From: Flavobacteriales bacterium
GTDB taxonomy: Bacteria; Bacteroidota; Bacteroidia; Flavobacteriales_F; PHOS-HE28
Length of the DNA: 64,000 nt
Direction: 5' to 3'
Assembly (NCBI GenBank): GCA_016704485.1
Contig: JADJAA010000001.1
Coordinates: 1,554,824-1,618,823 of the forward strand
In this document: one piece after another, positions 21,274 through 43,362 of the stretch
How positions within the stretch are numbered: the first letter of the stretch is position 1
Layout of the letters: the number at the start of each line of letters is the position of its first letter
Notes under the pieces: model-generated
Seen by the model: the letters and a program-made list of their open reading frames with translations, nothing else
Database searches by the model: none
Told to the model about the DNA's origin: nothing
Program-made: the position numbers and the translations under genes

Positions 21274-23375
21274 ATGTGCACCCACACACGCCTGCTATTA
21301 GTTGCGATCGCCATTTTTGGTCGTAGGGCTATGCACGGCGCAACAAGATGGACCAACCGAGGAGGAGCAGCCAACAATTATCACGGCGGAACAACTGCAG
21401 GACTTTAATTCGGTAGTGCCCGGCATGGGTCGACAGATCCCGGGAATATACTTGTCCAACTACGGGCTTCTGTGTTACCACTTTGGGGATGATGGCACAT
21501 TCGCATCGCGCGACTTGAATGATTCCGGTTGGGTCGCAGCCGGTTCATGGTATGCGCCCATCACGTTGCCAAAGGAACAATTGGACACTGCGCAAGCCCT
21601 GTGGGTGCGGTACCATCTTCTCTGCGACAGTTCCCTGCGCGGTAGCCCATTGACACTAAGTTTGGGATCCATTGCCGGTATTGAGATCTTTTTGAACGGC
21701 CATCGGTTGGTGCACGTCCGGGAATTGCCGCCGGTTGTTCATGATCTTGATCAACCAATTTGGGACACGCTGCGGCGCTTTACCCTACCGATCACATTCG
21801 CGTGCCAAGGCGAACCAGAAGTGCTCGCTATTCGGATAGATCCGGCAAGGAATGGAATTCCCTACCCCACTTTGCACTATACGAACTTCGCCTACAACGT
21901 ACAGCTGTCCGCGATGCACTATGGTGTCTTCATCGGGGTCAACGCCATCATCTTTTGCTCGCCTTGGTCCTCTGGTCTTTGGACCGGAATGATAAGCAGT
22001 GGTGGCTACTGGCCCTGCTGGCCTTCGTTACAGGATCAGGGTATGCGCCAAGTTGACCAGTGAGATGGGCTTGTTGGGTTTGCCGTGGCCCACCATCCAG
22101 GTCATTGGCATTATTGACAAGATCCTCCTTCTATGGCCTATGTATGTGCTTATCATGGTCTTGTGGCGCATGCTAGGTGGGTTATCAAGTCGGCGCGCCT
22201 TTTGGCTCACCTTCGGTGTCTTGTTCGTTTCGGCAACCAGCGCTGGCCGCTTGTACTTTTTCGGGAAGATCTCCTGGTCATTTTCGGAGATCACGGGGGA
22301 ATACAGCATAGATGCAGGTTTGTCCGATGATCAGTGGCCACTTTTGGTCGCACTGGTGGTTGGTGCGGTACTGCGCTATTCCATAGCGCTCTGGTTCGCG
22401 ATCGAATTGATCCGACTTGGCATTCGCCTGGTGCGTAAGAAGGGTTTCGGACGTTGGATCGGGGCAGGGGCGCTTGTGTCCAGTCTGTTGAGTTTCCTCT
22501 TGACGTGCTTCGGCCTGGTCACTGAAATACCATCTACGACATGGCTCACACTTTCCGATTATCTCGCCTATGTTGCTGTGCCGGTTTCAGTCGTCATTTA
22601 TCTGGCCGTCACTGCCGCTCAAAACAACAAGCTGGTAGCGCGTCAACGGGATGATCTTGATCGCGAGGTGGACGACCGTACCGCCGAACTTGTAGCGGAG
22701 AAACAAGCGGTGTTGCGCGAGAAAGAACGCAGCGATGAACTACTCCTCAACATCCTGCCATCCGAAGTGGCGGAAGAACTAAAAGCCAACGGTTCGGCAA
22801 AGGCGCGGGACTTCGATCCCGCCACCATCCTGTTCACCGACTTCAAAGGCTTCACGGAGCTATCCGTGCAATTAAGTGCTCAGGATCTGGTGGCCGAGAT
22901 CAATACGTGTTTCGAGGCGTTCGATGGGATAATTTCCCGGTACGGTGTGGAGAAGATCAAGACCATTGGCGATGCTTACATGGCGGCAGGTGGCGTGCCT
23001 GATCCTCTGCGCGGATCACCGGCAGGTGTTGTAGAGGCCGCGTTGGAGATGCAGGAATTCATGGTCAGGTACAAAGCGCAACGAACAGCCTTGAACAAAC
23101 CGGCCTTCGAGATGCGTCTCGGTGTTCACACCGGCCCAGTGGTGGCGGGCATCGTGGGTGTGAAGAAGTTCCAGTACGATATCTGGGGCGACACCGTGAA
23201 CACGGCCAGCCGCATGGAGAGCAATAGCGAAGTGGGCCAAGTAAACATCTCGCAGAGCACCTATGAACTGGTGAAGAACGTGCCGGGACTTGCCTTCACA
23301 TCGCGAGGCAAAATACCAGTGAAAGGGAAAGGAGAGCTGGAAATGTACTTCGTAAAGAGAGGGCCGGTCGCATAG
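21274..23375 (+). pseudogene. 7TMR-DISM-type class III adenylate/guanylate cyclase with a broken reading frame (at least 3 shifts)
   Basis: Track ORFs 21302-22063 (extracellular 7TMR-DISMED2-like domain), 21760-22056 and 21999-23375 (TM helices plus cyclase domain IKTIGDAYMAAGG...GVKKFQYDIWGDTVNTASRME) occupy three frames. The sensible protein path is: signal peptide MCTHTRLLLVAIAIF (ATG 21274, frame 1); LVVGLCTAQQ... (frame 2, shift at a T5 run near 21313); ...GVFIGVNAIIF then LLALVLWSLDRNDKQWWLLALLAFVTG (shift near 21950); then KLTSEMGLLGLPWP... (shift near 22045). Confidence 0.6.
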
Positions 23376-25448: not shown

Positions 25449-27004
25449 TTCAACAACGCCTCCAATTCGTCCAACAATTTCACACGGTCGGCGGCCAATT
25501 GGCGCAGGCCGGGTTCTCCCTTTTTGCCGTTGATCAGCTCGGCGGGCGTGGCATACTTCACTTGCTCGTACACCACCTCCTTGTAGCGGTTTATGCTGAG
25601 GTCCCAGTTGTTGGCCTTCAAGTCCGCAAAGGGCACCAGAAAGCTCTGGTCGGTTCGTGCACGTTTGCTTTCACCTTTCGCACCGAAGCGCGCTAGGATG
25701 TCGGCGATGTTGCTTTTCTCGTGCAGCGTTTTCGCTCCCTTGGTGGGCTCGGTGTATTGGAGTTCAAGCTGTTCTTCGGTGAGTTGCGGTGTGCGCTTAT
25801 CATCCAACGAGAAACCGTCGGCACGCATGTCGTAGAACCACACGTTGTCGGTACCGCCGCTATCGGTCTTGGTAAAGATCAGCACCGCGGTGCTCACCCC
25901 TGCATAGGGTTTGAATACGCCGCCGGGCATGCTGATCACCGCTTGCAATTGCTGGCGTTCGATCAGTTCCTGCCGCAGTTGCTTGTGCGCCTTGCTGCTG
26001 CCGAAGAGCACACCATCGGGCACGATCACAGCTGCGCGGCCACCTGTGCGGAGCATGCGCAGGATCAGACCTAGGAAGAGCAACTCGGTCTTCTTGCTGC
26101 TCACTGTGCGCAAGATCGCAGGGTCCACAGCGTCGTGGTCCAAGCTGCCTTTGAACGGCGGGTTCGCTAACACCAGCGAGAAGCGCTCACTGATGTGGCC
26201 TTGCTCTTTGCTAAGCGCATCCTGCCCGATCAGTTGCGGGTGCTCAATGCCGTGCAACATCATGTTCATGGCACCAATGCGCAACATGCTGGAGTCGAAC
26301 TCGACCCCGGTGAAGAGGTTGGTGTTGTAATGCTCGCGGAACTTCTTCTCGTGGAAGCTGTCCGGGTGCGTGCGCCGTATCTCTTCGCTTGCCGCCACCA
26401 AGAAACCGCACGTGCCGGCACTGGGATCGCAGATGGTATCGGTGGGTTGCGGAACCATCAGTTGCACCATCATGCGGATGATGTGGCGCGGTGTGCGGAA
26501 CTGGCCGTTGCGTCCTGCCGTAGCGATCTTGCCCAGCAGGTATTCATAGAGGTCGCCCTTGGTGTCGCGGTCGGCCATGTCCAGCGCGGCGATCATTTGC
26601 ACGGCGCGGTCCAGCAACCGCGCGGAGGGGATCATGAACGTAGCACCCTTCATGTGCTCACTGAACACGCTGCCCTCGCGCCCCATCTGCTTCATGAAAT
26701 CGAAGACCGTGAGGTTATCGTTCTTCGCATCAGGCCGCGTAAAGAGCGCGAACAATGTATCCGGGTCCTTGTCCTTGAAACTGCTCCACCGCAACGCCTT
26801 GTACTTGGGCGGGTAAATGGGATCCTTGATGGGCCCACCGAGCTTGGCGCTCTGCTTCTCTTTGGTGGTCTGGATCTCATCCATCCGGCGCAAAAAGAGC
26901 AAGTAGGTGATCTGTTCGATAACCGTGAGCGGATTGGCGATGCCGCCAGTCCAGAAGGCCTCCCAGAGGCGGTCGACGTCGGAGCGGAGTGTTCCGTTTA
27001 TCAT
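25445..27004 (-). CDS. hsdM: Type I R-M DNA methyltransferase subunit
   Basis: HsdM N-terminal domain. FRTPRHIIRMMVQLM, motif I ICDPSAGTCGFLV and motif IV VLANPPFKGS are all intact. Confidence 0.92.
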   Translation of the reverse strand: MINGTLRSDVDRLWEAFWTGGIANPLTVIEQITYLLFLRRMDEIQTTKEKQSAKLGGPIKDPIYPPKYKALRWSSFKDKDPDTLFALFTRPDAKNDNLTVFDFMKQMGREGSVFSEHMKGATFMIPSARLLDRAVQMIAALDMADRDTKGDLYEYLLGKIATAGRNGQFRTPRHIIRMMVQLMVPQPTDTICDPSAGTCGFLVAASEEIRRTHPDSFHEKKFREHYNTNLFTGVEFDSSMLRIGAMNMMLHGIEHPQLIGQDALSKEQGHISERFSLVLANPPFKGSLDHDAVDPAILRTVSSKKTELLFLGLILRMLRTGGRAAVIVPDGVLFGSSKAHKQLRQELIERQQLQAVISMPGGVFKPYAGVSTAVLIFTKTDSGGTDNVWFYDMRADGFSLDDKRTPQLTEEQLELQYTEPTKGAKTLHEKSNIADILARFGAKGESKRARTDQSFLVPFADLKANNWDLSINRYKEVVYEQVKYATPAELINGKKGEPGLRQLAADRVKLLDELEALLK

Positions 27005-33489: not shown

Positions 33490-33904
33490 CTGCCAGCTGG
33501 GTGGTAACCTGCACCAAGCTTGATGGTACCACACACCAAGCTTAGTGGTACCCTGTGCCAAGCTTAGTGGTACCTTGCACTAAGCTTGATGGTACCCTGC
33601 ACTAAGCTTAGTGGTACCCTGCACTAAGCTTAGTGGTACTCTGCACTAAGCTTAATGGTACCCTGCACCCAGTTGGGTGGTACCCTCCACCCAGCAGGGT
33701 GGTACCCTGCACCCAGTTGGGTGGTACCCTGCACTAAGCTTAGTGGTACCCTGCACTAAGCTTAGTGGTACTCTGCACTAAGCTTAATGGTACCCTGCAC
33801 CCAGTTGGGTGGTACCCTGCACCCAGTTGGGTGGTACCCTGCACCCAGTTGGGTGGTACCCCGCACTAAACTTAATGGTACCCGACACCAAGCTCAATAG
33901 TGCA
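33490..33904. repeat. Tandem array 1: about 19 contiguous 22-bp units, each carrying a 14-bp palindrome plus GGTACC
   Basis: The units are CTGCACTAAGCTTAGTGGTACC (core CACTAAGCTTAGTG) or CTGCACCCAGTTGGGTGGTACC (core CACCCAGTTGGGTG). Units at 33597-33728 are repeated at 33729-33860 as a 132-bp (6-unit) higher-order repeat. Edge units are degenerate. Confidence 0.95.
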
Positions 33905-33993: not shown

Positions 33994-34202
33994 CTATACC
34001 ATACTACTATAGGGCACATTGAACCTTAGTCTGGACTTCCGCCTTCGGAACTGCATTCGCTGCCAGATGATCATTGGGGTGCAATTATCCCAAACCTATA
34101 CCATATTACTATAGGGGGCATAAGCCTCCATCTCCGGCTCGTGAACTTTGGAGGTAAAGATGGTGTGATTTGACCTACTACCTATACCATATTACTATAT
34201 GG
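33994..34202 (+). promoter_or_regulatory. Three dispersed copies of a 21-bp element CTATACCATA(T/C)TACTATA(G/T)GG
   Basis: Copies at 33994-34014, 34096-34116 and 34182-34202, with starts 102 and 86 bp apart, all in the same orientation. Two copies end in ACTATAGGG, identical to positions -6 to +3 of the T7 promoter consensus. Function is unknown. Confidence 0.5.
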
Positions 34203-34291
34203 TGCTTTGCACCGTGCGCCTCGTGGTGCACACTTGTGGTTCAGAACTGCTTCATGTAGGCCTGGTGCAAGAGGCTGTATTTGTTCCATTG

Positions 34292-34753
34292 GTACATGGC
34301 CTTGTCCCGTAAGTACATGTACTTGTGCCTTTGGTACATGTACTTGTCCCGTGAGTACATGTACTTGTCCCGTAAGTGCATGTACTTGTCCCGTGAGTAC
34401 ATGTACTTGTCCCGTGAGTACATGTACTTGTCCCGTAAGTACATGTACTTGTCCCGTAAGTACATGTACTTGTGCCGTTGGTACATGTACTTGTCCCGTA
34501 AGTACATGTACTTGTGCCGTTGGTACATGTACTTGTGCCGTTGGTACATGTACTTGTGCCGTGAGTACATGTACTTGTGCCGTGAGTACATGTACTTGTC
34601 CCGTAAGTACATGTACTTGTGCCGTTGGTACATGTACTTGTCCCGTAAGTACATGTACTTGTCCCGTAAGTACATGTACTTGTCCCGTAAGTACATGTAC
34701 TTGTCCCGTAAGTACATGTACTTGTGCCGTGAGTATGTGTACCTGTACCATGT
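34292..34753. repeat. Tandem array 2: about 22 contiguous 21-bp units built on the palindrome GTACATGTAC
   Basis: Units are GTACATGTACTTGTCCCGTAA, with variants ending ..GTGCCGTTG, ..GTCCCGTGA and ..GTGCCGTGA. Adjacent units form GTACATGTACTT-GTCCCGT-AAGTACATGTAC, a 12-bp stem with a 7-nt loop. The period is a multiple of 3, so all six frames appear open. Confidence 0.95.
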
Positions 34754-35042
34754 GTAACGATACTTCAAGTTACAGTACACTTACTTGATACAGAGGTGCT
34801 TATGCCATTGCGTGGGGTATGCCTGCTTGTAACACGGGGACTGATAACCCACTCAGCGTCAGGCGTAAAGAGTGATCCGAACGTTGCCCGTGCTGCATAA
34901 CCCATCCTCGAGCGGCCGCGTGCGGGCTACAGTAAATGAAAAGAACCCCGGCCAGTTGTGCTAGGATTCTTCCGTTCGGGGATGGTGTATGAGTGGCAGG
35001 GTCGTCTGCTATGCGGCAGACTGACCCTGAGCGGGTTTAAAA

Positions 35043-35457: not shown

Positions 35458-36426
35458 TCAAGCCTTTATGAACTCGTTCACAAAAGCTTGTACAAATTGC
35501 TTGGCTAAAGCAGAGTAAGGCTTGGTCGGCTCTGTCAGTTGCATCAGCAATTCCACCTCTTGCTCGATCATCGCCTCAATTGTTCCTGTGGTCTTTTTTA
35601 CAAGTTTGTTCAATGTACGTGTTGGTACTTTATCCTTGAATGATCTGATATCCTTACCGATCTCGTTCGATAGGTCGATCAATTTCAAGATCATCTCAAA
35701 ACGCATTTTTAATCGCAGAATGTATTCTCTGCGCATATCGACCAACCCCTTTCTATTCAAGCCGTAGATCTCAATGGAACGGATCGCTTTTTGCCAATGG
35801 ATCTCCCTTTTTATCACGTTCTCTGATGAGGGCAAAGCAATGGCCTTCATTACTCCTGAGTCATCGTATTCCAAGTATTTGCTAGGTTCGTCCGTACAAG
35901 GGTTCAACAACAAACATTGTTCGCCTGAAATATCGAACAGCGGCGCACTCGCACGCATTGTTTCATCAAACAATGGAAAAGAGTTTGCCTTTCCTTGTTT
36001 TAGCTTTTTCCATTGATAGGACCCATCTATGGGGTTCTTTCGATACACATATTGATAGCGCGCTCTATTGCAGTCTATGCATGAAGGGAGTAGATTATCC
36101 CATTCCATTGCGAGCTTAGCATATACACCTACTTTAGTTTCGGTCTTGTTCGTCAATTCTACGAGCACTTCGGATTTGGGTCTGAAATGCTCAATATCCA
36201 GCGGTTGTGTGCGCGTGTAAGGTGATTCGCAATATGCACATTTACCATGGAACATAAGCTCCAACAACTCAGGCACTTTTTCGTGCTTGTAAAGCTTGAA
36301 ATCGGGCTTTAGGTCCTTGTGGAAATCGCTTCGAAGCCATGCTTCCACCTCTTCCTTTTCTTTGTTGAAGGCATCCGAGGTTATGGTAAGTGCCTGCGGG
36401 GCATTTACGCGTTTTCGTTTGATCAT
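35458..36426 (-). CDS. PtuB-like HNH endonuclease (TIGR02646-type)
   Basis: HGKCAYCESPYTRTQPLDIEHFRPKSE...WDNLLPSCIDCNRARY, followed by LLLNPCTDEPSKYLEYDDSG. It starts 8 nt downstream of the ATPase gene. Confidence 0.75.
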   Translation of the reverse strand: MIKRKRVNAPQALTITSDAFNKEKEEVEAWLRSDFHKDLKPDFKLYKHEKVPELLELMFHGKCAYCESPYTRTQPLDIEHFRPKSEVLVELTNKTETKVGVYAKLAMEWDNLLPSCIDCNRARYQYVYRKNPIDGSYQWKKLKQGKANSFPLFDETMRASAPLFDISGEQCLLLNPCTDEPSKYLEYDDSGVMKAIALPSSENVIKREIHWQKAIRSIEIYGLNRKGLVDMRREYILRLKMRFEMILKLIDLSNEIGKDIRSFKDKVPTRTLNKLVKKTTGTIEAMIEQEVELLMQLTEPTKPYSALAKQFVQAFVNEFIKA

Positions 36427-36434
36427 TGAAGAGC

Positions 36435-38822
36435 TCAGTTGTTCAGGCGCCAGGAAGCATCCGTTAAAGCCTCTATTATCTTCTTAGTGGGTTTGGGAAA
36501 TCGTACGTTGGTCGGTGACTTCATCAAGTGCTCATCGATCAGCCTCAACAAGTACATATCACGCCGACTACTACCGAGAATGCTCTTTCTGTTGAGTCGT
36601 TCATGTAGATCCTTCAGTTGTGCCTTACCCGAATCATCTAACGCCGATGCCTTCGCTATGAGGTTGTAATAGCGGTCAAAGAATTCAGCTGTGCGCGGGT
36701 CCAGGGTTGTACTTAATCCGAATAATTCTGAGGTAAGGAGCTGGTCGGAACGTAAGCCAGCCGGCGAATCCATGTCGTCGTGTACTGTAGCCATGGAAGG
36801 GTCGTCCACATTTCTCTTGACCAATGCTACTTCACCAGCACCCAGCCCATGCAGGCATAGTGGCTCATGGGTGCTCGCGATGAATTGGATAAGCGGAAAT
36901 GTCTGTTCCAATCTTCTTAAGATGCTCATGCGCCAACTCGGGTGCAGATGTGCACCGATCTCATCAATTAGTACCACGCCTCTAATTTGATGCGTATCCG
37001 TTGGATTGCCTGCCATTATATCACAGGCTAGACCAACCATGGTCTTGTAACCCGCACTAAAATGCTTTAAGCGGGTGAATGACCCGTTCACGAAAAGCCC
37101 GAATTGTGTTGGCTTGTTGTTTTCAAATTGAAAGTCGAGACGTGTAGAATTATCTGTAAGATCCAGCAGGTCCTTCAAGGCCACACAAACATCGAAGAAC
37201 TGCTGTTGATTCTTTACCACTATGGTACGTAACCACTCTTCGGCATCTACCATGGGATAGAACGGGTCAAAGAGGTTCTGGATGTTCTTATTCACTCCCC
37301 TTTTCTCTAACAGATCAGAACTCTTGCCTTTTTGCGGCAGCAATCGAACAGGCCCGTATGCACGAAGAAATATATTCGGGACCTCACCTTGCTCCCATTT
37401 TAATCCGCTATTCGTGATGTTCACTACGATAGGATCTGTTCGCTGATGAAAGTAGACTTCAATTCTACCTGACGTAGCTCCACGCCTCAAGCTAGTGCTG
37501 AAATGCTCCTTCATCTTACTCAAGGCTTTCTTGCCGCTGAGTATCAATGCAAGTGCTTCGAGCAGCGAACTTTTTCCTGACCCGTTCTCACCCAGCAGCA
37601 TTTTCCAACCGCTGTGTCGAAAGGTTTCCTGTTGTGGAGATTCGGAGCCGTTTTCGTCGATCGTCTTCCGGCGTTCCTCTTGATTGCCTCCCGCTGTTTC
37701 CGTGTTCAAGTCTAAGTTCAGTTCACGTTCTGTGTCTACTAGGTCTTTCGGGCGTTCTTGGGGGATCAAGAATACAGCCTTCTCGAAGATCCTGTAATTC
37801 TCAACTATTAATTTGCTAATGGTCAGCGCTTGATGCGCGACTTTCTCCTTGGACGGCGCATTCTCTGTGGCGGTTTTCGGAGGAGTTCTTTGCGCCTCGG
37901 AACTCGTCTTCTTTGGAGACTCCTTATTAGCGCGTGTTGATCCCGGTTTCGTACGCGCTCCGGTCTCAGCTTCTAATAAGGACCCAGGCTTATTGAGCCC
38001 TTTGCTTATTGTTTCGACGTGCAGGCCGTCGCCTTGAATGAGGATTTTTAGTCCGAAGTCCTCCTTAAGAACATGGTTACTCAGATTCCGCATTGGACTT
38101 TGCGGGTCTATCAGTCCTTTCAAGAAGTGATCTTCTTCTACGGTTCGAGGTAGTTTCTCACCCTTTTTTTTAAGAACCAGAGACTTTGTCAAGTCGCGAA
38201 CTCGGTGAACCATATCACTCCTTCTATTGATGGCGGATTTCCGGTTCAGGTCCAGAGTTTCAATGGTCACCTCGGCTCGTCGCTTCTGCATGTGCCCTAA
38301 AGTGGAACGAGGCTTTATCATTCCATTAGATGAATAGTCGAAGTACTCCTCCGGATCGTCTTCATAAGGATTCAGCAAATACGGTTCTTCTTTCTCGAGC
38401 GCACTCCCCCGAGGCTGGTCATCAGCATGCTTGATAGGAACACGTTTTCCGGCGATGGGAAACTGTGCTCCCTTTGCAAAACTGCACTCATTGCATATGG
38501 GTAGCATGTTCTGCCAATCAAACAATAGCCACCAATAGTGGTCGCCAACCTGCTCATTTGGTTCCACTTTTACCGGTCGGTACAGGTCGATGTGTACCGT
38601 CTTTTCATTCAAGGGTGCTTCGCAATACGCACATGCATTATTGGAGGTTTCCAGAAGATCTCGGTTTACATCACGAGAATACTGTGGAGCCTTGTGTCTT
38701 ATCTGGCTTCGCTTCTCTAAAGGTTGCGCATAAAACTTCCGAAGTTCATTGAACGTCTTCTCTCCTTCCGTACTGTACTGTAGGTCTGGTGGAGATACTT
38801 TACTTCGGTTCAGTTTTCTCAT
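36435..38822 (-). CDS. Fusion of a PtuB-like (HNH-derived) N-terminal domain to a PtuA/AAA_15-type ABC-like ATPase
   Basis: N-terminus NNACAYCEAPLNEKTVHIDLYRPVKV...WQNMLPICNECSFAKG. Low-complexity linker (KPGSTRANKESPKKTSSEAQRTPPKTATENAPSKEK). Walker A LLGENGSGKSSLLEAL. Walker B VVLIDEIGAHLHPSW. FIASTHEP. Confidence 0.75.
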   Translation of the reverse strand: MRKLNRSKVSPPDLQYSTEGEKTFNELRKFYAQPLEKRSQIRHKAPQYSRDVNRDLLETSNNACAYCEAPLNEKTVHIDLYRPVKVEPNEQVGDHYWWLLFDWQNMLPICNECSFAKGAQFPIAGKRVPIKHADDQPRGSALEKEEPYLLNPYEDDPEEYFDYSSNGMIKPRSTLGHMQKRRAEVTIETLDLNRKSAINRRSDMVHRVRDLTKSLVLKKKGEKLPRTVEEDHFLKGLIDPQSPMRNLSNHVLKEDFGLKILIQGDGLHVETISKGLNKPGSLLEAETGARTKPGSTRANKESPKKTSSEAQRTPPKTATENAPSKEKVAHQALTISKLIVENYRIFEKAVFLIPQERPKDLVDTERELNLDLNTETAGGNQEERRKTIDENGSESPQQETFRHSGWKMLLGENGSGKSSLLEALALILSGKKALSKMKEHFSTSLRRGATSGRIEVYFHQRTDPIVVNITNSGLKWEQGEVPNIFLRAYGPVRLLPQKGKSSDLLEKRGVNKNIQNLFDPFYPMVDAEEWLRTIVVKNQQQFFDVCVALKDLLDLTDNSTRLDFQFENNKPTQFGLFVNGSFTRLKHFSAGYKTMVGLACDIMAGNPTDTHQIRGVVLIDEIGAHLHPSWRMSILRRLEQTFPLIQFIASTHEPLCLHGLGAGEVALVKRNVDDPSMATVHDDMDSPAGLRSDQLLTSELFGLSTTLDPRTAEFFDRYYNLIAKASALDDSGKAQLKDLHERLNRKSILGSSRRDMYLLRLIDEHLMKSPTNVRFPKPTKKIIEALTDASWRLNN

Positions 38823-38823
38823 C

Positions 38824-40638
38824 TTAACTATGTGCTATTCTGTGGAACGTGTTCGCCAAATAGTGCTTCGGGTTAGTCCTGGCGATCAGGTCGAATTGTG
38901 CTTCGCTCAGGCCGGCCAGCATATTGGCATAGAGCTCCTTTTCTGATAGGTGGTTCCTCACGACAAAAAAGTCTGTACCGAACAGGACCCGTTCACCGAG
39001 TTTCTTCACTGAATGGTCGATCGTCTTTTTCAGTAACGGTTGTATCCACGGATCGTGCAATATGTAACTGATATCTGCATAAACGTTCTCATAGCGCAAC
39101 ATCATACTGCAAATGATCGTGTACCAGTCAGCTTCCATCCAGTGAGCGTAGACACGTGTCCATTGGATGCGCTTGTGTTCGTTGTCATAATACGATCGAT
39201 GAAATAATCCGCTTTCAGCATGCAGGTTCAGATCTTGGTTGTACTGGTCATTATCGGCTTCTAAATGTCGTTTCCATTCATCAACACCACCAAAATGTGC
39301 CAAGCAGATCTTCAATTGAGAAAGTGATCGGAATTTTTCATCGGGACCTTTTTCGAACAACGTTTGAATTCGGGGTTGGCAGCTCACGAGGTGCTCCCTC
39401 AAGAGGTCATCATCCAGCAGGCAGAGGTAGTTCAATGGATGTGTGTAGTTCTTTTGAAAGTCGATTCCGCGAAGTTCCAACAGGTCAATGGGTGCGATCA
39501 CCGTATCGTCATGTGCGTCCTCTATTCCGGTTGAACGCTTGAAGACAGGATGCTTTGCCATTTCATCAGTGATCTTGTCTCGGGAATATATTGTGCCATG
39601 CACGCAATGGGTCATGATCGGTAAACCTTCCTGAGCTGCATACGCCCACACGGGCAATAGGTCTTCATCGAAAGGATAATAACCTAAAGCCGGGTAGATC
39701 TTGAATCCGCAGCAACCATTGCTTAGATACTTCTGGACTTTACATTCAAGCAAGACTACTTTACCGTATTCTACTTTCCACTTGAAGAAGTCATCCTCTT
39801 CACGAATTCGGCGTGGATCAATGAAGATGAAAGGCAGTATTTGATGTCCATGATCTTCACCTTTGGTAAGTTTTACAAGCCCTTCCATTTGTTTGTGGAA
39901 ATCACCTAATCGGTGGACCTTCCCCGCACCCATGTATTTCATATCCATTGGTAGAACAATGAATTTGGTTTCGGCTGGGTACTGGGCCCGGAGTTTTTGA
40001 AAGAGTAGACTTAGTCGCCTTTGGTCATCACCGGTTTTCGCACTTTTCGTCTCGTAACCATAAGAGCTGAAGCGTGCGATAAGTACGTATCGCTCCAAAA
40101 GGTCCATGTACTCCGTAGCAGGAAAGCTCTTGATCATTGGAACAAACTTTTGTAGAAGGAACCAGATCTGTCTTCGAACGGCTGGGATGAATGCAATAAT
40201 TGCTGCTACGAATATGGTCTTGATCGCCCAGTGTAATTCATGAAAGTATAATTTATACTTTACAAGTAACGCCAAGAACGCCGCGATATATTTCGACCCG
40301 CCATAGAAGGTGCTTTCAACCAAAACTTCATAAAGGAATAATAACACATAGATCGTAACGATCAAATTAAACGCACCTCGTACAAACTTCAAGAAGCTGT
40401 TTCGTTGGATCCTGTTCTGCGCCTTTACCTTGTTTATGCGTATGGTTTCTTGTGCCGGTTCATACCGCTCGGCATACTTCCGTCGGTTGCACTTCACGTA
40501 AAGTTTCATGAAGTAATCCATTCGCGCCCACTTGTACAACGGCCACGGAAGAATACCCTTTGCATGCTCTGGAGGCACGTGATAGTTGTTGAACAAGTGC
40601 ACGTGGCAGTTCACTATGGGGTCCTTCACTTTACTCAT
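38824..40638 (-). CDS. Amidohydrolase-superfamily (Amidohydro_2-like TIM barrel) protein with an inserted block of about 3 TM helices
   Basis: Metal ligand candidates: VNCHVHLF, GFKIYPALGY, IMTHCVHG, CLAHFGG, LFGTDFFV. A hydrophobic insert at about aa 85-165 (FLKFVRGAFNLIVTIYVLLFLY, YIAAFLALLV, IKTIFVAAIIAFIPAV). Its stop is 1 nt from the ATPase start. Confidence 0.7.
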   Translation of the reverse strand: MSKVKDPIVNCHVHLFNNYHVPPEHAKGILPWPLYKWARMDYFMKLYVKCNRRKYAERYEPAQETIRINKVKAQNRIQRNSFLKFVRGAFNLIVTIYVLLFLYEVLVESTFYGGSKYIAAFLALLVKYKLYFHELHWAIKTIFVAAIIAFIPAVRRQIWFLLQKFVPMIKSFPATEYMDLLERYVLIARFSSYGYETKSAKTGDDQRRLSLLFQKLRAQYPAETKFIVLPMDMKYMGAGKVHRLGDFHKQMEGLVKLTKGEDHGHQILPFIFIDPRRIREEDDFFKWKVEYGKVVLLECKVQKYLSNGCCGFKIYPALGYYPFDEDLLPVWAYAAQEGLPIMTHCVHGTIYSRDKITDEMAKHPVFKRSTGIEDAHDDTVIAPIDLLELRGIDFQKNYTHPLNYLCLLDDDLLREHLVSCQPRIQTLFEKGPDEKFRSLSQLKICLAHFGGVDEWKRHLEADNDQYNQDLNLHAESGLFHRSYYDNEHKRIQWTRVYAHWMEADWYTIICSMMLRYENVYADISYILHDPWIQPLLKKTIDHSVKKLGERVLFGTDFFVVRNHLSEKELYANMLAGLSEAQFDLIARTNPKHYLANTFHRIAHS

Positions 40639-40766: not shown

Positions 40767-41864
40767 TTAAGAATTAGGTACTATCTGCACACCAAACCGG
40801 AACTGGAAATTCTTCTTCACGAAATCATCTCCGGAATACCAATTAGCCACTATTCGAACGACGCTATTCAATGCTAAACCTGCGCTGAATTGCCAAAGAT
40901 CGATACCTCCCTCTGACGTACGATCAAGATTATGCCAAAAAACAGCATTTCCACTTATGTGAGAATAGCGCACTTGACCAAAAAGAGCCATGCGATCCTT
41001 AATCCCAGTAAGTGAAAATACCATTTCTGCACCATTATCAAAGTTTTGGCCAACGACATTTGTGTCTACCCCGATCTTAGGAAGATCGAAGGATAATCGA
41101 GGTGCATAATGCAAGCGAATGGACAATCGACGGTTCAGTGAGGTAAATCCGACAATTGGCACACCGAAATTCAAAACCCCGTTTCCGCCACCGCCAAGAA
41201 TACGTTGCACCTGATCTTGGAAAGTGGCGCTGGAGTCTGAAACTGGCACTGTATCTGGCTCACTCGTCTTGTTGCTGATCAGCGCACCAAAACCCATTCG
41301 CACTGGTCCGAAATAATCATAAACAACCTCCGAGTATAGAGATGCTTTCTGTGCTTGCCCACTATACGTGAGGAGATTATTCTTTAGGAGTTTTCCCCGT
41401 TCCTCTTCAGAACTGAAACCATCGTAGAAATATTCCGTCGCAATTCGCCGGACCGCCAAGCCATAAAGCCCTTCTGTTACATCCGGATCGAACCGGATGC
41501 GCAACAATTCTTCTCTGTACGACTGGAAATCCTGCCTTCGCTGTCGATATGCGGCTTTCAGTGAATCGATCAGTTCTTTTGAATCGGCGGAGCGGTCATT
41601 ATCCAGTGCTTGGAACGAAGCTCTTCGGAATGCTTGTTTGTGTTTCTTGTTTTCGGCTCGATCGTCTTTCAAAAATGCATATACACTCTTTACTTGTATT
41701 GACGAATCAGACGGTTCAAGGAATTTATTCAGTTCAACTTTTGTTAAGTCTATGTTGCTTTTCCGAGACTCACTGTTTGGAAAAACAAATGGCCCCGTTT
41801 GTGCGAACATTGTGCATGAGGTTGAAAGCAGGAATATCGCAATTGTTGTTCGTCTCATTGTCAT
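40767..41864 (-). CDS. Secreted/outer-membrane protein of unknown function (beta-barrel-like C-terminal half)
   Basis: Signal peptide MTMRRTTIAIFLLSTSCTMFAQ. The C-terminal region has alternating hydrophobic residues and ends FQFRFGVQIVPNS. Confidence 0.6.
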   Translation of the reverse strand: MTMRRTTIAIFLLSTSCTMFAQTGPFVFPNSESRKSNIDLTKVELNKFLEPSDSSIQVKSVYAFLKDDRAENKKHKQAFRRASFQALDNDRSADSKELIDSLKAAYRQRRQDFQSYREELLRIRFDPDVTEGLYGLAVRRIATEYFYDGFSSEEERGKLLKNNLLTYSGQAQKASLYSEVVYDYFGPVRMGFGALISNKTSEPDTVPVSDSSATFQDQVQRILGGGGNGVLNFGVPIVGFTSLNRRLSIRLHYAPRLSFDLPKIGVDTNVVGQNFDNGAEMVFSLTGIKDRMALFGQVRYSHISGNAVFWHNLDRTSEGGIDLWQFSAGLALNSVVRIVANWYSGDDFVKKNFQFRFGVQIVPNS

Positions 41865-41884
41865 ATACTTTTCAGTTCAATTAT

Positions 41885-42676
41885 TTAGACTTCTACACCA
41901 TAAGATTCCGTGAACGCCGCTTCAGCGTATGATTTGCTGGCGTAAGCAAACCCTTTGTCTCCCCACAGAGTGGTTCCCCAACTGTTTCGCACGATGAAAT
42001 GATCAGGCGTGTATCCGACAATAGAGACAGCGTGGCCACCTAGGTTGTCGCTGGCACGGTAGCGCGCTAGTTTGCCCCGTGTCTCTTTCGCATCCATAAA
42101 GGCGTTGTCACAGTTCAGCCGGGTGAGAATGGGGCCTTTGTTGGCGATCCAGCGCCGCCATTCATTCAGGTCTTGGCCTAATGAGAAGTAGCGCATCACC
42201 TTCAACTGCGCAGCAATCGCGTAGAACACATCGGTCTCATCCGGATAGAGTATTCCGCGACCGAAAGGCAACACGCTATCCAGCACTGCGCCGTATTTGC
42301 GCGATACATCGAGTGCTGCTTTCAGACTGGTTCCATCGCTTTCAATGAATGAGGTTGGTTTGTCGGTGAATTCATCGATCTCCTTTGCGGCCATCCATGT
42401 AAAGCGCGTGCTAAGCCTACGGTTGGTGGCGATCCTTCCGGCTTTTGCGAAATGCCAACGCAGCACACCTTCGGCGCAAGCCCAGCCAACGCACGAGCCG
42501 GTACTTCCTTGGTCGCCAATGGTCCACCAATCTTCTCGCAAGTCTTTTTTAGGCGGAGGTGGTGCTGGTGCGCGTAGTGCGCCAGCGGCACGTGCTGTGT
42601 GCAAGTTCCAATCGTTTGCGGTGTTCAATGAAGGAAGGCAATTGAGGACGCGGGGAGGTGATTTCTTTGTTGCCAT
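41885..42676 (-). CDS. Papain-like C1-family cysteine peptidase (no signal peptide seen)
   Basis: Catalytic motifs DQGSTGSCVGWA (Cys), GGHAVSIVGY (His) and VRNSWGTTLWGDKGF (Asn). Confidence 0.8.
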   Translation of the reverse strand: MATKKSPPRVLNCLPSLNTANDWNLHTARAAGALRAPAPPPPKKDLREDWWTIGDQGSTGSCVGWACAEGVLRWHFAKAGRIATNRRLSTRFTWMAAKEIDEFTDKPTSFIESDGTSLKAALDVSRKYGAVLDSVLPFGRGILYPDETDVFYAIAAQLKVMRYFSLGQDLNEWRRWIANKGPILTRLNCDNAFMDAKETRGKLARYRASDNLGGHAVSIVGYTPDHFIVRNSWGTTLWGDKGFAYASKSYAEAAFTESYGVEV

Positions 42677-42708
42677 TTTTTTGAGGAATTTGTTGACTTA
42701 AGCTTCGT

Positions 42709-43362
42709 TCATGCGCTCCACCGCCACCCCAACACATCACTCGCCGGGTAACTACTTACACAAACACTATTACTCTGATTACCGCCTAACACCATGATGC
42801 CGGTACCGCGCGTTTCGAGGTAGAAGGCCACATGGCCACTGGTGGTGCTGTTGCCGCGTTTGAAGACTGCGATGCATCCGGGAACGGGCTCGTTAATTTT
42901 TTTGCCCCATTGCAACCAGCTGCGAGCGGCGGCGGAGTTGGTGCCGCGCAAGTTTGCTTTGGTGATGCACCAGTTAACGAATGACGAGCACCATGCCACC
43001 TCATCGGTGGTTGCTTTGAGACCTGTAGTACTGTGGTATTCAATTATGCGCTGGTTATGCTCAGGACCTGGATATTCCTTAACACCGATCTCTGCACGGG
43101 CGATCTTCAACCAAGCAGGCTCATCTATCGGTGGAGCGGTGGCAACCGGTTCGATGTAGGTGGTGCTTACCCAACCGGTAAGTGTGCCATCGCGCAATTT
43201 TGCGCTCACTTGCGCCCAACCATTCCGCGGTCCTTGCAAGAGGTCCAATGCGGTATGCTGCGGTAGGCGACCGATGATGGATCGATTGGTACTTGGGCCT
43301 TCGCGAAGGCGAAGTACAGAGGCGGTGGTGCGGTGAGTTGGCATGGTGTTTCGTTCGAACAA
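42709..43362 (-). CDS. SH3b domain + TIGR02594/CHAP-like cell-wall amidase
   Basis: N-terminal SH3_3-like LRLREGPSTNRSIIGRLPQHTALDLL...GWAQV. C-terminal EVAWCSSFVNWC (Cys) and TSGHVAFY (His). Alternative start ATG 43344. Confidence 0.75.
   Translation of the reverse strand: MFERNTMPTHRTTASVLRLREGPSTNRSIIGRLPQHTALDLLQGPRNGWAQVSAKLRDGTLTGWVSTTYIEPVATAPPIDEPAWLKIARAEIGVKEYPGPEHNQRIIEYHSTTGLKATTDEVAWCSSFVNWCITKANLRGTNSAAARSWLQWGKKINEPVPGCIAVFKRGNSTTSGHVAFYLETRGTGIMVLGGNQSNSVCVSSYPASDVLGWRWSA

What the first reader, a model, noticed from the sequence alone, without database searches (positions are those of the whole stretch)
35458..40638. Low-GC three-gene cassette: membrane-inserted amidohydrolase + PtuB/PtuA fusion ATPase + PtuB-like HNH, a Septu variant with an extra enzymatic partner
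The three minus-strand genes are almost contiguous, with 1-nt and 8-nt gaps. The last two resemble Septu (PtuA AAA_15-type ATPase plus PtuB HNH nuclease). The first gene is not part of Septu as described. It is an Amidohydro_2-like TIM-barrel protein (HVH, KIYP, THC, AHFGG, GTDF ligand pattern) carrying about 3 TM helices inserted after the first strand. Composition differs sharply from the surroundings: by hand count, line 39841-39900 has 23/60 G+C against 35/60 for line 26041-26100 in hsdM. That points to horizontal acquisition. An amidohydrolase-superfamily enzyme paired with an ATPase recalls RADAR in concept only; the families differ.
Basis: partly seen in the sequence, partly recalled or inferred. 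Interest (0 to 1): 0.75.

Follow-up and report, generated by a model that had tools for sequence, protein, structure and literature searches.

The report
Septu operon plus membrane-anchored amidohydrolase
A known two-gene anti-phage nuclease system (Septu) sits in one operon with an uncharacterised membrane-anchored metal hydrolase that also turns up beside several other immune modules in Bacteroidota, so the hydrolase looks like a new plug-in immune component and not a fixed third part of Septu.

Summary
Three contiguous minus-strand genes (gaps of 1 and 8 nt) lie in a low-GC block (0.46 against 0.54) inside a defence island of a Flavobacteriales MAG.

Genes 2 and 3 are an ordinary type I Septu. 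The PtuB-like/PtuA fusion matches an existing PADLOC PtuA model over its full length (E 1.6e-157), and PtuB matches at 1e-68. The fused HNH-like domain has lost its catalytic His.

The family has about 350 clusters at 50% identity, mostly from Bacteroidota. Members lie next to fused-PtuA/PtuB pairs in about 10 other loci, in both gene orders and once convergently. The link is neither exclusive nor obligatory:
- More members sit beside protease plus MBL-nuclease modules, Endonuclease_NS genes, or alone.
- Two are fused to STAND NTPases.
- Only 2 of 8 closest PtuA relatives have an adjacent amidohydrolase.
- The amidohydrolase does not co-vary with PtuA (Mantel r 0.08), whereas PtuA and PtuB do.

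Best reading: Septu plus a separable, promiscuous, probably immune-related membrane hydrolase of unknown substrate. I found no description of it in PADLOC v2 or the searchable literature.

The parts
38824..40638 (-). Membrane-anchored amidohydrolase-superfamily enzyme (604 aa), first gene of the operon
40165..40386 (-). Two-TM hairpin (TM1 residues 85-108, TM2 residues 138-158) within the roughly 200-residue insertion after barrel strand 1 (residues 20-222, nt 39973-40581)
   Evidence: Two Kyte-Doolittle peaks recur at the same positions in nearly all of 28 homologues. K/R-rich segments flank both outer ends, which puts the catalytic domain in the cytoplasm by inference. The model is helical through this region.
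36435..38822 (-). PtuA with an N-terminal PtuB-like domain (795 aa), the Septu ATPase
   Evidence: PADLOC PtuA1 PDLC00292 at E 1.6e-157, matching over profile positions up to 694 of 726. The same model also matches stand-alone PtuB at positions 1-209, so the model itself is of the fused type. Pfam hits are AAA_21, SMC_N and AAA_15. PDB sequence relatives are PtuA chains of Septu 8EE4 and retrons Ec78/Ec83.
38163..38822 (-). Degenerate HNH (PtuB-like) domain of the fusion, residues 1-220
   Evidence: Matches PtuB models at 3e-30 and TIGR02646 at 3e-17. The zinc CxxC pairs are kept, but the motif D-I-E-H-F-R-P of PtuB reads H-I-D-L-Y-R-P here. The His is lost in 5 of 7 fused lineages and kept in all 6 stand-alone PtuBs examined.
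36438..37625 (-). ABC-type ATPase core of PtuA: Walker A GENGSGKS (residues 411-418), signature-like FSAGYK (588-593), Walker B LIDEIG (618-623), H-loop STHEP (650-654)
   Evidence: Motifs read directly from the sequence. Domain hits.
35458..36426 (-). PtuB HNH nuclease (322 aa), catalytically intact
   Evidence: PADLOC PtuB1 PDLC00329 at 1.2e-68, full length. NCBIfam PtuB at 1e-15. Motifs CAYCE, DIEHFRP and NLLPSCIDCN are present.

Best explanation
The cassette is a horizontally acquired operon that combines two separable modules.

Module 1 (genes 2 and 3) is a complete type I Septu system. From published Septu and retron-Eco7 work, the ABC-type ATPase PtuA holds and gates the HNH nuclease PtuB, and infection releases nuclease activity against DNA and/or tRNA. 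Here PtuA carries an N-terminal PtuB-like domain that is catalytically dead (His to Leu), so it is probably structural.

Module 2 (gene 1) is a cytoplasm-facing metal-dependent hydrolase of the amidohydrolase superfamily. It is tethered to the inner membrane by a 2-TM hairpin inserted after barrel strand 1, and its ligand set (HxH, Lys on strand 4, His, His, Asp) is of the binuclear type.

This hydrolase belongs to a Bacteroidota-centred family that behaves as a mobile plug-in. It occurs alone, beside Septu, beside protease+MBL-nuclease zymogen modules, beside Endonuclease_NS genes, and fused to STAND NTPases.

I infer that it is an immune or conflict module in its own right. Most likely it is a membrane-proximal enzymatic effector, or a conditioning enzyme acting on a small molecule or lipid-linked substrate. 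I infer that it works in parallel or in synergy with the neighbouring nuclease system, and not as a physically integrated Septu subunit.

Shown here: gene identities, fold, conserved active site, membrane insertion, and the recurrent but non-exclusive neighbourhoods. Inferred: topology, the immune role, parallel action, and anything about the substrate.
For: - Septu identity and completeness.
- Two-gene fused-PtuA/PtuB modules exist without any amidohydrolase (L088, L091, L093, L095).
- Amidohydrolase fold and intact metal ligands.
- Conserved 2-TM hairpin.
- Recurrent juxtaposition with Septu in about 10 loci, with gaps of -41 to +42 nt in most, in both gene orders.
- Septu-linked amidohydrolases are scattered over at least 7 positions of the family tree.
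- Amidohydrolase and PtuA similarities are uncorrelated (Mantel r 0.08, p 0.30), whereas PtuA and PtuB co-vary (rho 0.65, p 0.0015). Near-identical PtuA lineages (L012/L086 and L057/L075) sit beside distant amidohydrolases in opposite orders.
- Other partners are immune-type modules. These are MBL proteins matching LmuA, Avs1a and DRT-associated MBL at up to 3.5e-68, with subtilase, caspase, CHAT or HExxH proteins, and trypsin-Endonuclease_NS. They correspond to the published protease-MBL zymogen modules (PMC12642450, PMC12799240).
- Fusions to nSTAND1 and NACHT-like NTPases.
- The window itself is a defence island and the cassette is compositionally foreign.
Against: - No experiment links this hydrolase family to phage defence.
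- PADLOC v2 has no model for it, and I found no paper on it.
- 34 of 58 informative loci show no recurrent partner, and many of their neighbours are housekeeping or metabolic genes.
- In one island the amidohydrolase and Septu are 5 genes apart, and in L092 they are convergent. Both fit mere island co-residence.
- The tight 1-nt spacing here would equally fit an integrated three-protein system.
- The substrate is unknown, and the closest solved structures are themselves mostly uncharacterised.
- No homologue was found in plasmid or phage collections.
Confidence: 0.5

Rival explanations
1. Integrated three-component Septu variant. The membrane amidohydrolase would be a required sensor, regulator or membrane anchor of the PtuAB complex. 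It might detect envelope perturbation or make or destroy a ligand that gates PtuA, much as the retron RT-msDNA co-opts PtuAB in type I-A retrons.
For: - The spacing is 1 nt here, and genes overlap or nearly abut in L029, L057, L060 and L012.
- The arrangement recurs in about 10 loci.
- The same PtuA lineages are found repeatedly with amidohydrolases.
- There is a precedent for an add-on module re-wiring PtuAB (PMC12819146; PADLOC Septu type II).
- Some family members have lost all metal ligands yet keep the fold and the TM hairpin (P0192, P0157). That hints at a non-catalytic, sensor-like or scaffold role.
Against: - There is no co-variation between amidohydrolase and PtuA, while PtuA and PtuB co-vary.
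- The arrangements are inconsistent: both gene orders, one convergent case and one separated case.
- Five of the 8 closest PtuA relatives lack it.
- The amidohydrolase has many other partners or none.
- Active-site residues are intact in 77 of 83 copies, so catalysis, not just binding, is under selection.
Confidence: 0.17
2. Coincidental neighbour. The amidohydrolase would be an accessory membrane enzyme with a non-immune job, such as envelope, lipid or secondary-metabolite turnover. It would simply travel in variable genomic regions where defence systems also accumulate.
For: - More than half of informative loci have no immune-type partner. Their neighbours include ThuA, GH3, FeoB, queuosine and thiamine genes, kynureninase-like enzymes, and two-component systems in L083-L085.
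- An M19 dipeptidase-like gene is a recurrent neighbour in 4 loci.
- There is no PADLOC model for the family.
- Soluble relatives of about 365 aa exist.
Against: - 21 of 58 loci have an immediately adjacent, co-directional nuclease or protease immune module of at least three unrelated kinds.
- Two of the 8 closest PtuA relatives have an adjacent amidohydrolase and a third has one in the same island. That is far above chance for a family of about 350 clusters among 1.8 billion representatives.
- The family is covalently fused to STAND NTPases in two cases.
- In the window, gene 1 shares its low GC with Septu.
Confidence: 0.25
3. Nucleic-acid or nucleotide-directed effector. The barrel would be a TatD-like DNase or a RADAR/Cad1-like nucleotide deaminase that depletes or damages nucleotides during infection.
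For: - Amidohydrolase-superfamily deaminases are used in RADAR and Cad1 (my own knowledge, not tested here).
- The invariant DPRR and other basic motifs could bind phosphates.
Against: - Strand 4 carries Lys, not the Glu of TatD (the TatD ligand is from my own knowledge).
- Pfam finds only Amidohydro_2, and PADLOC finds no RdrB-like hit.
Confidence: 0.08

Closest known systems
Septu type I (PtuA ABC-type ATPase + PtuB HNH nuclease; Doron et al. 2018; structures 8EE4/8EE7)
   Same: Genes 2 and 3 match PADLOC PtuA1 and PtuB1 models over their full length. ATPase motifs and the PtuB HNH site are intact, the genes are adjacent and co-directional, and the locus sits in a defence island.
   Different: PtuA carries an N-terminal PtuB-like domain whose catalytic His is lost. 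This architecture is already represented in PADLOC model PDLC00292 but is not the experimentally studied form. An extra upstream gene is co-transcribed.
Septu type II / type I-A retrons (RT-msDNA + PtuAB; Ec78/Eco7)
   Same: This is the precedent for a third, unrelated module placed upstream of ptuAB that changes how PtuAB is controlled.
   Different: The add-on here is a membrane metal hydrolase, not a reverse transcriptase with ncRNA. Unlike retron-associated PtuA, which forms its own clade, PtuA shows no co-variation with the add-on here.
Amidohydro_2 (PF04909) branch of the amidohydrolase superfamily (LigI lactonase, ACMSD/LigW decarboxylases, many uncharacterised COG2159/COG3618 proteins)
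   Different: It has a roughly 200-residue insertion after strand 1 containing a 2-TM hairpin. It has an invariant Lys on strand 4, which is typical of binuclear phosphotriesterase or dihydroorotase-type centres rather than LigI or ACMSD (my own knowledge). The Pfam model aligns only to the C-terminal third, and sequence identity to solved structures is 11-19%.
Protease-MBL nuclease zymogen modules (Evans et al. 2025 preprint, PMC12642450; Science 2025, PMC12799240)
   Same: These modules are the most frequent partners of the amidohydrolase family elsewhere: MBL proteins matching LmuA, Avs1a or DRT-MBL, with subtilase, caspase/CHAT or HExxH proteins. Like those modules, the amidohydrolase is a cassette that joins unrelated immune systems.
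   Different: No protease or MBL gene is in the window cassette. Neither paper mentions an amidohydrolase.
RADAR (RdrA ATPase + RdrB adenosine deaminase)
   Same: Only the concept is shared: an ATPase paired with an amidohydrolase-superfamily enzyme.
   Different: The ATPase here is ABC/PtuA-type, not RdrA. The hydrolase has no PADLOC RdrB hit and is structurally closer to Amidohydro_2 than to deaminases. It is also membrane-anchored.

Membership tests
Septu type I | PtuA: ABC/AAA_15-type ATPase with Walker A, signature and Walker B motifs | tested here: met
   PADLOC PtuA1 at 1.6e-157. Pfam AAA_21, SMC_N and AAA_15 all above their cutoffs. GENGSGKS, FSAGYK and LIDEIG are present. PDB sequence relatives are PtuA chains.
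Septu type I | PtuB: HNH nuclease with catalytic His and zinc-binding cysteines, encoded next to ptuA | tested here: met
   PADLOC PtuB1 at 1.2e-68. DIEHFRP, CAYCE and CIDCN are present. The gap to ptuA is 8 nt.
Septu type I | No reverse transcriptase or ncRNA (this separates type I from type II / retron I-A) | tested here: met
   No RT domain in the three genes or in the flanking genes scanned. An ncRNA was not searched for specifically.
Septu type I | PtuA-PtuB complex formation and anti-phage protection | not testable with these tools
   This needs biochemistry and phage challenge.
   About 10 further loci, with amidohydrolases only 32-43% identical to the window protein.
   Seven of 58 amidohydrolase loci carry Septu. 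Two of the 8 closest PtuA relatives have an adjacent amidohydrolase. Mantel r is 0.08 (p 0.30) for amidohydrolase against PtuA, compared with rho 0.65 for PtuA against PtuB. Gene order and orientation vary.
Amidohydrolase superfamily, Amidohydro_2 branch | (beta/alpha)8 barrel with HxH (strand 1), His (strands 5 and 6) and Asp (strand 8) metal ligands | tested here: met
TatD DNase family | TatD-type barrel with Glu on strand 4, and a Pfam TatD_DNase match | tested here: not met
RADAR | RdrA-type ATPase plus RdrB adenosine deaminase | tested here: not met
Protease-effector (MBL) zymogen modules | An adjacent protease gene and an MBL-fold nuclease gene | tested here: not met
   These are absent from the window cassette. 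They are present only at homologous loci elsewhere.

The most novel reading that the evidence does not exclude
The 2-TM amidohydrolase family is an undescribed immune module of Bacteroidota. It would be a self-contained, membrane-anchored enzymatic effector or sensor that can act alone. It has been repeatedly recruited next to, or fused with, unrelated defence scaffolds: Septu PtuAB, protease-MBL zymogen pairs, Endonuclease_NS toxins and STAND NTPases. This would add a new enzymatic chemistry, an amidohydrolase-superfamily hydrolase acting at the inner membrane, to anti-phage defence.
Probability: 0.4. Interest if true: 0.8.

Novelty: new variant of a known kind. Interest (0 to 1): 0.58.

Why it matters
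The Septu part is routine. The value lies in gene 1. It is a conserved, catalytically intact, membrane-tethered amidohydrolase that keeps appearing beside at least three unrelated nuclease or protease immune modules and is fused to STAND NTPases. Even so, it is absent from PADLOC v2 and from the literature I could search.

If it is an immune component, it would define a new effector or accessory class with a chemistry not yet seen in defence systems. It would also give a concrete test case for how stand-alone systems such as Septu pick up accessory genes, alongside the retron-PtuAB precedent.

The question is directly testable with two-gene, three-gene and single-gene constructs and metal-site mutants.

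Tried and rejected
- **Genome-collection scan.** The metagenome scan with an alignment was far more informative.
- **'Three TM helices'.** Rejected in favour of a 2-TM hairpin.
- **Co-evolution of the amidohydrolase with PtuA.** Tested and not found.
- **Plasmid or phage carriage of the amidohydrolase.** None found.
- **Promoter and terminator scan of the cassette.** Counts were at chance level, and Bacteroidota promoters are not covered by the tool. It gives no evidence for or against a single transcript. A 7-bp hairpin without a T-run lies about 80 nt after ptuB.
- **Literature searches** for amidohydrolase with Septu, defence islands, STAND or conflict systems. There were no relevant hits, and one search was wasted on 'septum' matches.
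- **The large partner proteins U681 and U760.** No Pfam, PADLOC or PDB sequence match. Their HExxH and CHAT-like motifs were read by eye only.
- **AFDB fold search.** Unavailable.
- **Neighbour gene calls.** Genes at related loci were called with a crude longest-ORF picker, so start sites and small genes are approximate.
Full report
**1. The observation**

Window 35458-40638 holds three minus-strand ORFs:
- 38824-40638 (604 aa)
- 36435-38822 (795 aa)
- 35458-36426 (322 aa)

They are separated by 1 nt and 8 nt. The cassette has GC 0.461. Same-size windows outside 33-43 kb have mean 0.537, sd 0.019 and minimum 0.504. The low-GC block continues to about 41.9 kb and includes an unrelated 365-aa gene with a signal-peptide-like N-terminus and no Pfam hit.

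The exact protein of gene 1 is on record from a Flavobacteriales MAG (P0001). The surroundings are a defence island:
- a DEAD+UvrD helicase fusion
- GmrSD
- a type I RM system
- an N6-MTase/HATPase protein with a radical-SAM partner
- a WYL-WCX regulator

**2. Genes 2 and 3 are Septu**

Gene 2 matches PADLOC PtuA1 model PDLC00292 at E 1.6e-157. Gene 3 matches PtuB1 PDLC00329 at 1.2e-68. Pfam (AAA_21, SMC_N, AAA_15), NCBIfam (PtuA, PtuB, TIGR02646) and PDB sequence hits agree; the PDB hits are PtuA of Septu 8EE4 and of retrons Ec78/Ec83, plus PtuB.

Residues 1-220 of gene 2 match PtuB models at 3e-30, so the 'PtuB/PtuA fusion' reading is right. It is not new, however. PDLC00292 is 726 positions long, and its first roughly 209 positions also match stand-alone PtuB. 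This means PADLOC already files the fused form under Septu type I.

Stand-alone PtuB has D-[IV]-E-H-[FY]-R-P, with the His kept in 6 of 6 examined. The fused domain of the window protein reads H-I-D-L-Y-R-P. The His is replaced in 5 of 7 fused lineages, while the CxxC zinc ligands stay. The fused domain is therefore most likely a structural pseudo-nuclease.

The ATPase motifs of PtuA and the HNH site of PtuB are intact. According to the literature read here, stand-alone Septu is an ATPase-nuclease pair that nicks DNA and has been linked to tRNA-Tyr cleavage. Retrons of type I-A co-opt the same pair (abstracts listed; PADLOC Septu type II).

**3. Gene 1 is a membrane-anchored amidohydrolase**

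- Pfam finds Amidohydro_2 at 3.8e-11, above its cutoff but only over residues 496-590.
- PADLOC finds nothing.
- An alignment of 28 full-length homologues (38-46% identity) shows invariant H12 and H14 (HxH), D232, K313 (GFKIYP), H344 (THC), H448 (AHFGG) and D556 (GTDF).
- All seven residues are intact in 77 of 83 copies collected from related loci. Five of the exceptions are truncated gene calls.
- An AlphaFold2 model built on that alignment has pLDDT 81 and pTM 0.79.

Between strand 1 (residues 9-13) and the next strand (225-228) lies an all-helical insertion. Hydropathy shows two TM-grade segments, about 85-108 and 138-158, at the same positions in nearly all homologues. K/R-rich stretches lie before the first and after the second. 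This indicates a 2-TM hairpin with a cytoplasmic catalytic domain. The topology is inferred.

A full scan of 1.84 billion representatives finds 351 clusters at E 1e-30 or better. It also finds a set of soluble relatives of about 365 aa that keep the ligands but lack the hairpin (for example P0232).

**4. Is the hydrolase tied to Septu?**

A metagenome scan seeded with the alignment returned 80 loci. tblastn with the window's PtuA and PtuB found fused-PtuA/PtuB pairs next to the amidohydrolase in these loci:
- L012, L029/L079, L032 and L057, in the order hydrolase, PtuA, PtuB
- L060, L075 and L086, in the order PtuA, PtuB, hydrolase

Most gaps range from -41 to +42 nt.

Working from the PtuA side, I looked up the 8 closest relatives (28-39% identity):
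- L090 has the same three-gene order as the window.
- L092 has a convergently transcribed amidohydrolase right after ptuB.
- P0122 shares a 21-kb island with amidohydrolase P0002, but 5 genes away.
- L088, L091, L093, L094 and L095 have none.

For such a small family, the association is far from random.

**5. The association is promiscuous and not co-evolving**

Among 58 non-redundant loci with at least 2.5 kb of flank:

| Partner of the amidohydrolase | Loci |
|---|---|
| Septu (fused PtuA + PtuB) | 7 |
| MBL-fold protein plus a large partner | 12 |
| Endonuclease_NS gene | 2 |
| No recurrent neighbour | 34 |

(The remaining three loci carried a two-component histidine kinase plus response regulator pair (2) or an M19 dipeptidase-like gene (1).)

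The MBL proteins match PADLOC LmuA, Avs1a and DRT-associated MBL models at up to 3.5e-68. Their partners are a subtilase, a Peptidase_C14 caspase, or proteins carrying HExxH or CHAT-like motifs. These correspond to the protease-MBL zymogen modules recently shown to be defence effectors recruited by many sensors (PMC12642450, PMC12799240). Neither paper mentions an amidohydrolase.

The unlabelled loci mix housekeeping genes with occasional patatin, CHAT, DNase II, Exo_endo_phos and MBL genes and conjugative-transposon genes.

On a neighbour-joining tree of 83 amidohydrolases, the Septu-linked ones fall in at least 7 separate places, interleaved with MBL-linked and solitary ones. Pairwise similarity of amidohydrolases does not track that of their PtuAs (Mantel r 0.08, p 0.30). 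PtuA and PtuB do co-vary (Spearman 0.65, p 0.0015). Closely related PtuAs (L012/L086 and L057/L075) sit beside distant amidohydrolases in opposite gene orders.

Two representatives are covalent fusions:
- P0206 is an nSTAND1 NTPase followed directly by an intact TM-amidohydrolase.
- P0192 is a NACHT-like NTPase, a long linker, and a TM-amidohydrolase in which every metal ligand is lost.

**6. Interpretation**

PtuA-PtuB behaves as a co-evolving unit that is complete without gene 1. The amidohydrolase behaves as an independent cassette that repeatedly lands beside, or fuses to, immune scaffolds of unrelated types.

I therefore read the window operon as Septu plus a separable, probably immune-related membrane hydrolase acting in parallel or in synergy (confidence about 0.5). 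The rivals are:
- an integrated three-protein Septu variant (about 0.17)
- coincidental neighbours, with the hydrolase doing a non-immune membrane job (about 0.25)
- a nuclease- or deaminase-type effector (about 0.08)

The substrate cannot be inferred. The invariant strand-4 Lys suggests a binuclear, carbamylated-lysine centre of the phosphotriesterase, dihydroorotase or isoaspartyl-dipeptidase type. That point rests on my own knowledge, and the geometry was not checked in the model. Membrane tethering suggests a membrane-proximal or lipid-linked substrate. This is speculation.

**7. Novelty and limits**

Septu, including its fused-PtuA form, is known. A Septu operon with this accessory gene, and the TM-amidohydrolase family as a recurrent partner of defence modules, were not found in PADLOC v2 or in the searchable literature. 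I cannot exclude a description in unsearched sources or in newer DefenseFinder or PADLOC releases.

Other limits:
- Neighbour gene calls came from a crude ORF picker.
- The loci sampled are the 80 best of 349 hits.
- No background-corrected defence-association score was computed.
- The promoter and terminator scan was uninformative.

Noticed in passing
window 33501-33894 and 34292-34746: Two long tandem arrays lie in the 2.1-kb gap between the WYL-WCX regulator gene and ptuB. One has a 22-bp unit repeated 17.9 times (with a 132-bp super-period). The other has a 21-bp unit repeated 21.7 times at 91% match. The spurious ORFs at 34182-34788 are artefacts of the second array.
   Followed up: partly
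window 10664-33354: This stretch is a defence island upstream of the cassette. It holds a 1610-aa DEAD+UvrD double helicase, GmrSD (DUF262), type I RM genes hsdR/S/M, an 898-aa N6_Mtase+HATPase_c protein followed by a radical-SAM/B12-binding protein, and a WYL-WCX regulator. The MTase-HATPase + radical SAM pair was not identified further.
   Followed up: partly
window 21999-23375 (+): An adenylate/guanylate cyclase gene (Guanylate_cyc 7e-56, with an HNOBA-like segment) sits on the opposite strand between hsdR and hsdS of the type I RM system.
   Followed up: no
P0206 and P0192 (representative proteins, not in the window): These are fusions of the TM-amidohydrolase to STAND NTPases. P0206 is nSTAND1 plus an intact hydrolase and is cut by a contig end. 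P0192 is a NACHT-like NTPase, about 550 residues of linker, and a hydrolase with all seven key residues replaced but the TM hairpin retained. P0157 is another partly degenerate member.
   Followed up: partly
L006 4441-7967; L052 2749-6119; L071 4297-7965; L004 4234-7952: The commonest partners of the amidohydrolase family are two-gene sets: a large protein plus an MBL-fold protein resembling LmuA or Avs1a. The large protein is a subtilase, a C14 caspase, a protein with a CHAT-like C-terminus, or a 640-720-aa protein with HExxH...HEGFADL and no Pfam or PDB match. In most cases they lie 5-50 nt from the hydrolase gene.
   Followed up: partly
L072 8430-9878, L073, L078, L026 4866-6416: A 482-516-aa Peptidase_M19 (membrane dipeptidase-like) protein, itself an amidohydrolase-superfamily barrel, is a recurrent immediate neighbour of the TM-amidohydrolase in four loci.
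   Followed up: no
L083, L084, L085 (upstream of the hydrolase): One clade of the family is preceded by a TPR histidine kinase plus a LuxR-type response regulator. This suggests regulated expression in that clade. L085 also has a PtuA/PtuB-like pair on the opposite strand about 2 kb downstream.
   Followed up: no
window 40767-43362 (-): Upstream of the cassette, on the same strand, are a low-GC 365-aa protein with a signal-peptide or lipobox-like N-terminus and no Pfam hit, then a papain-family C1 peptidase, then an SH3_3+CHAP protein. None of them recurs at the other amidohydrolase loci.
   Followed up: partly
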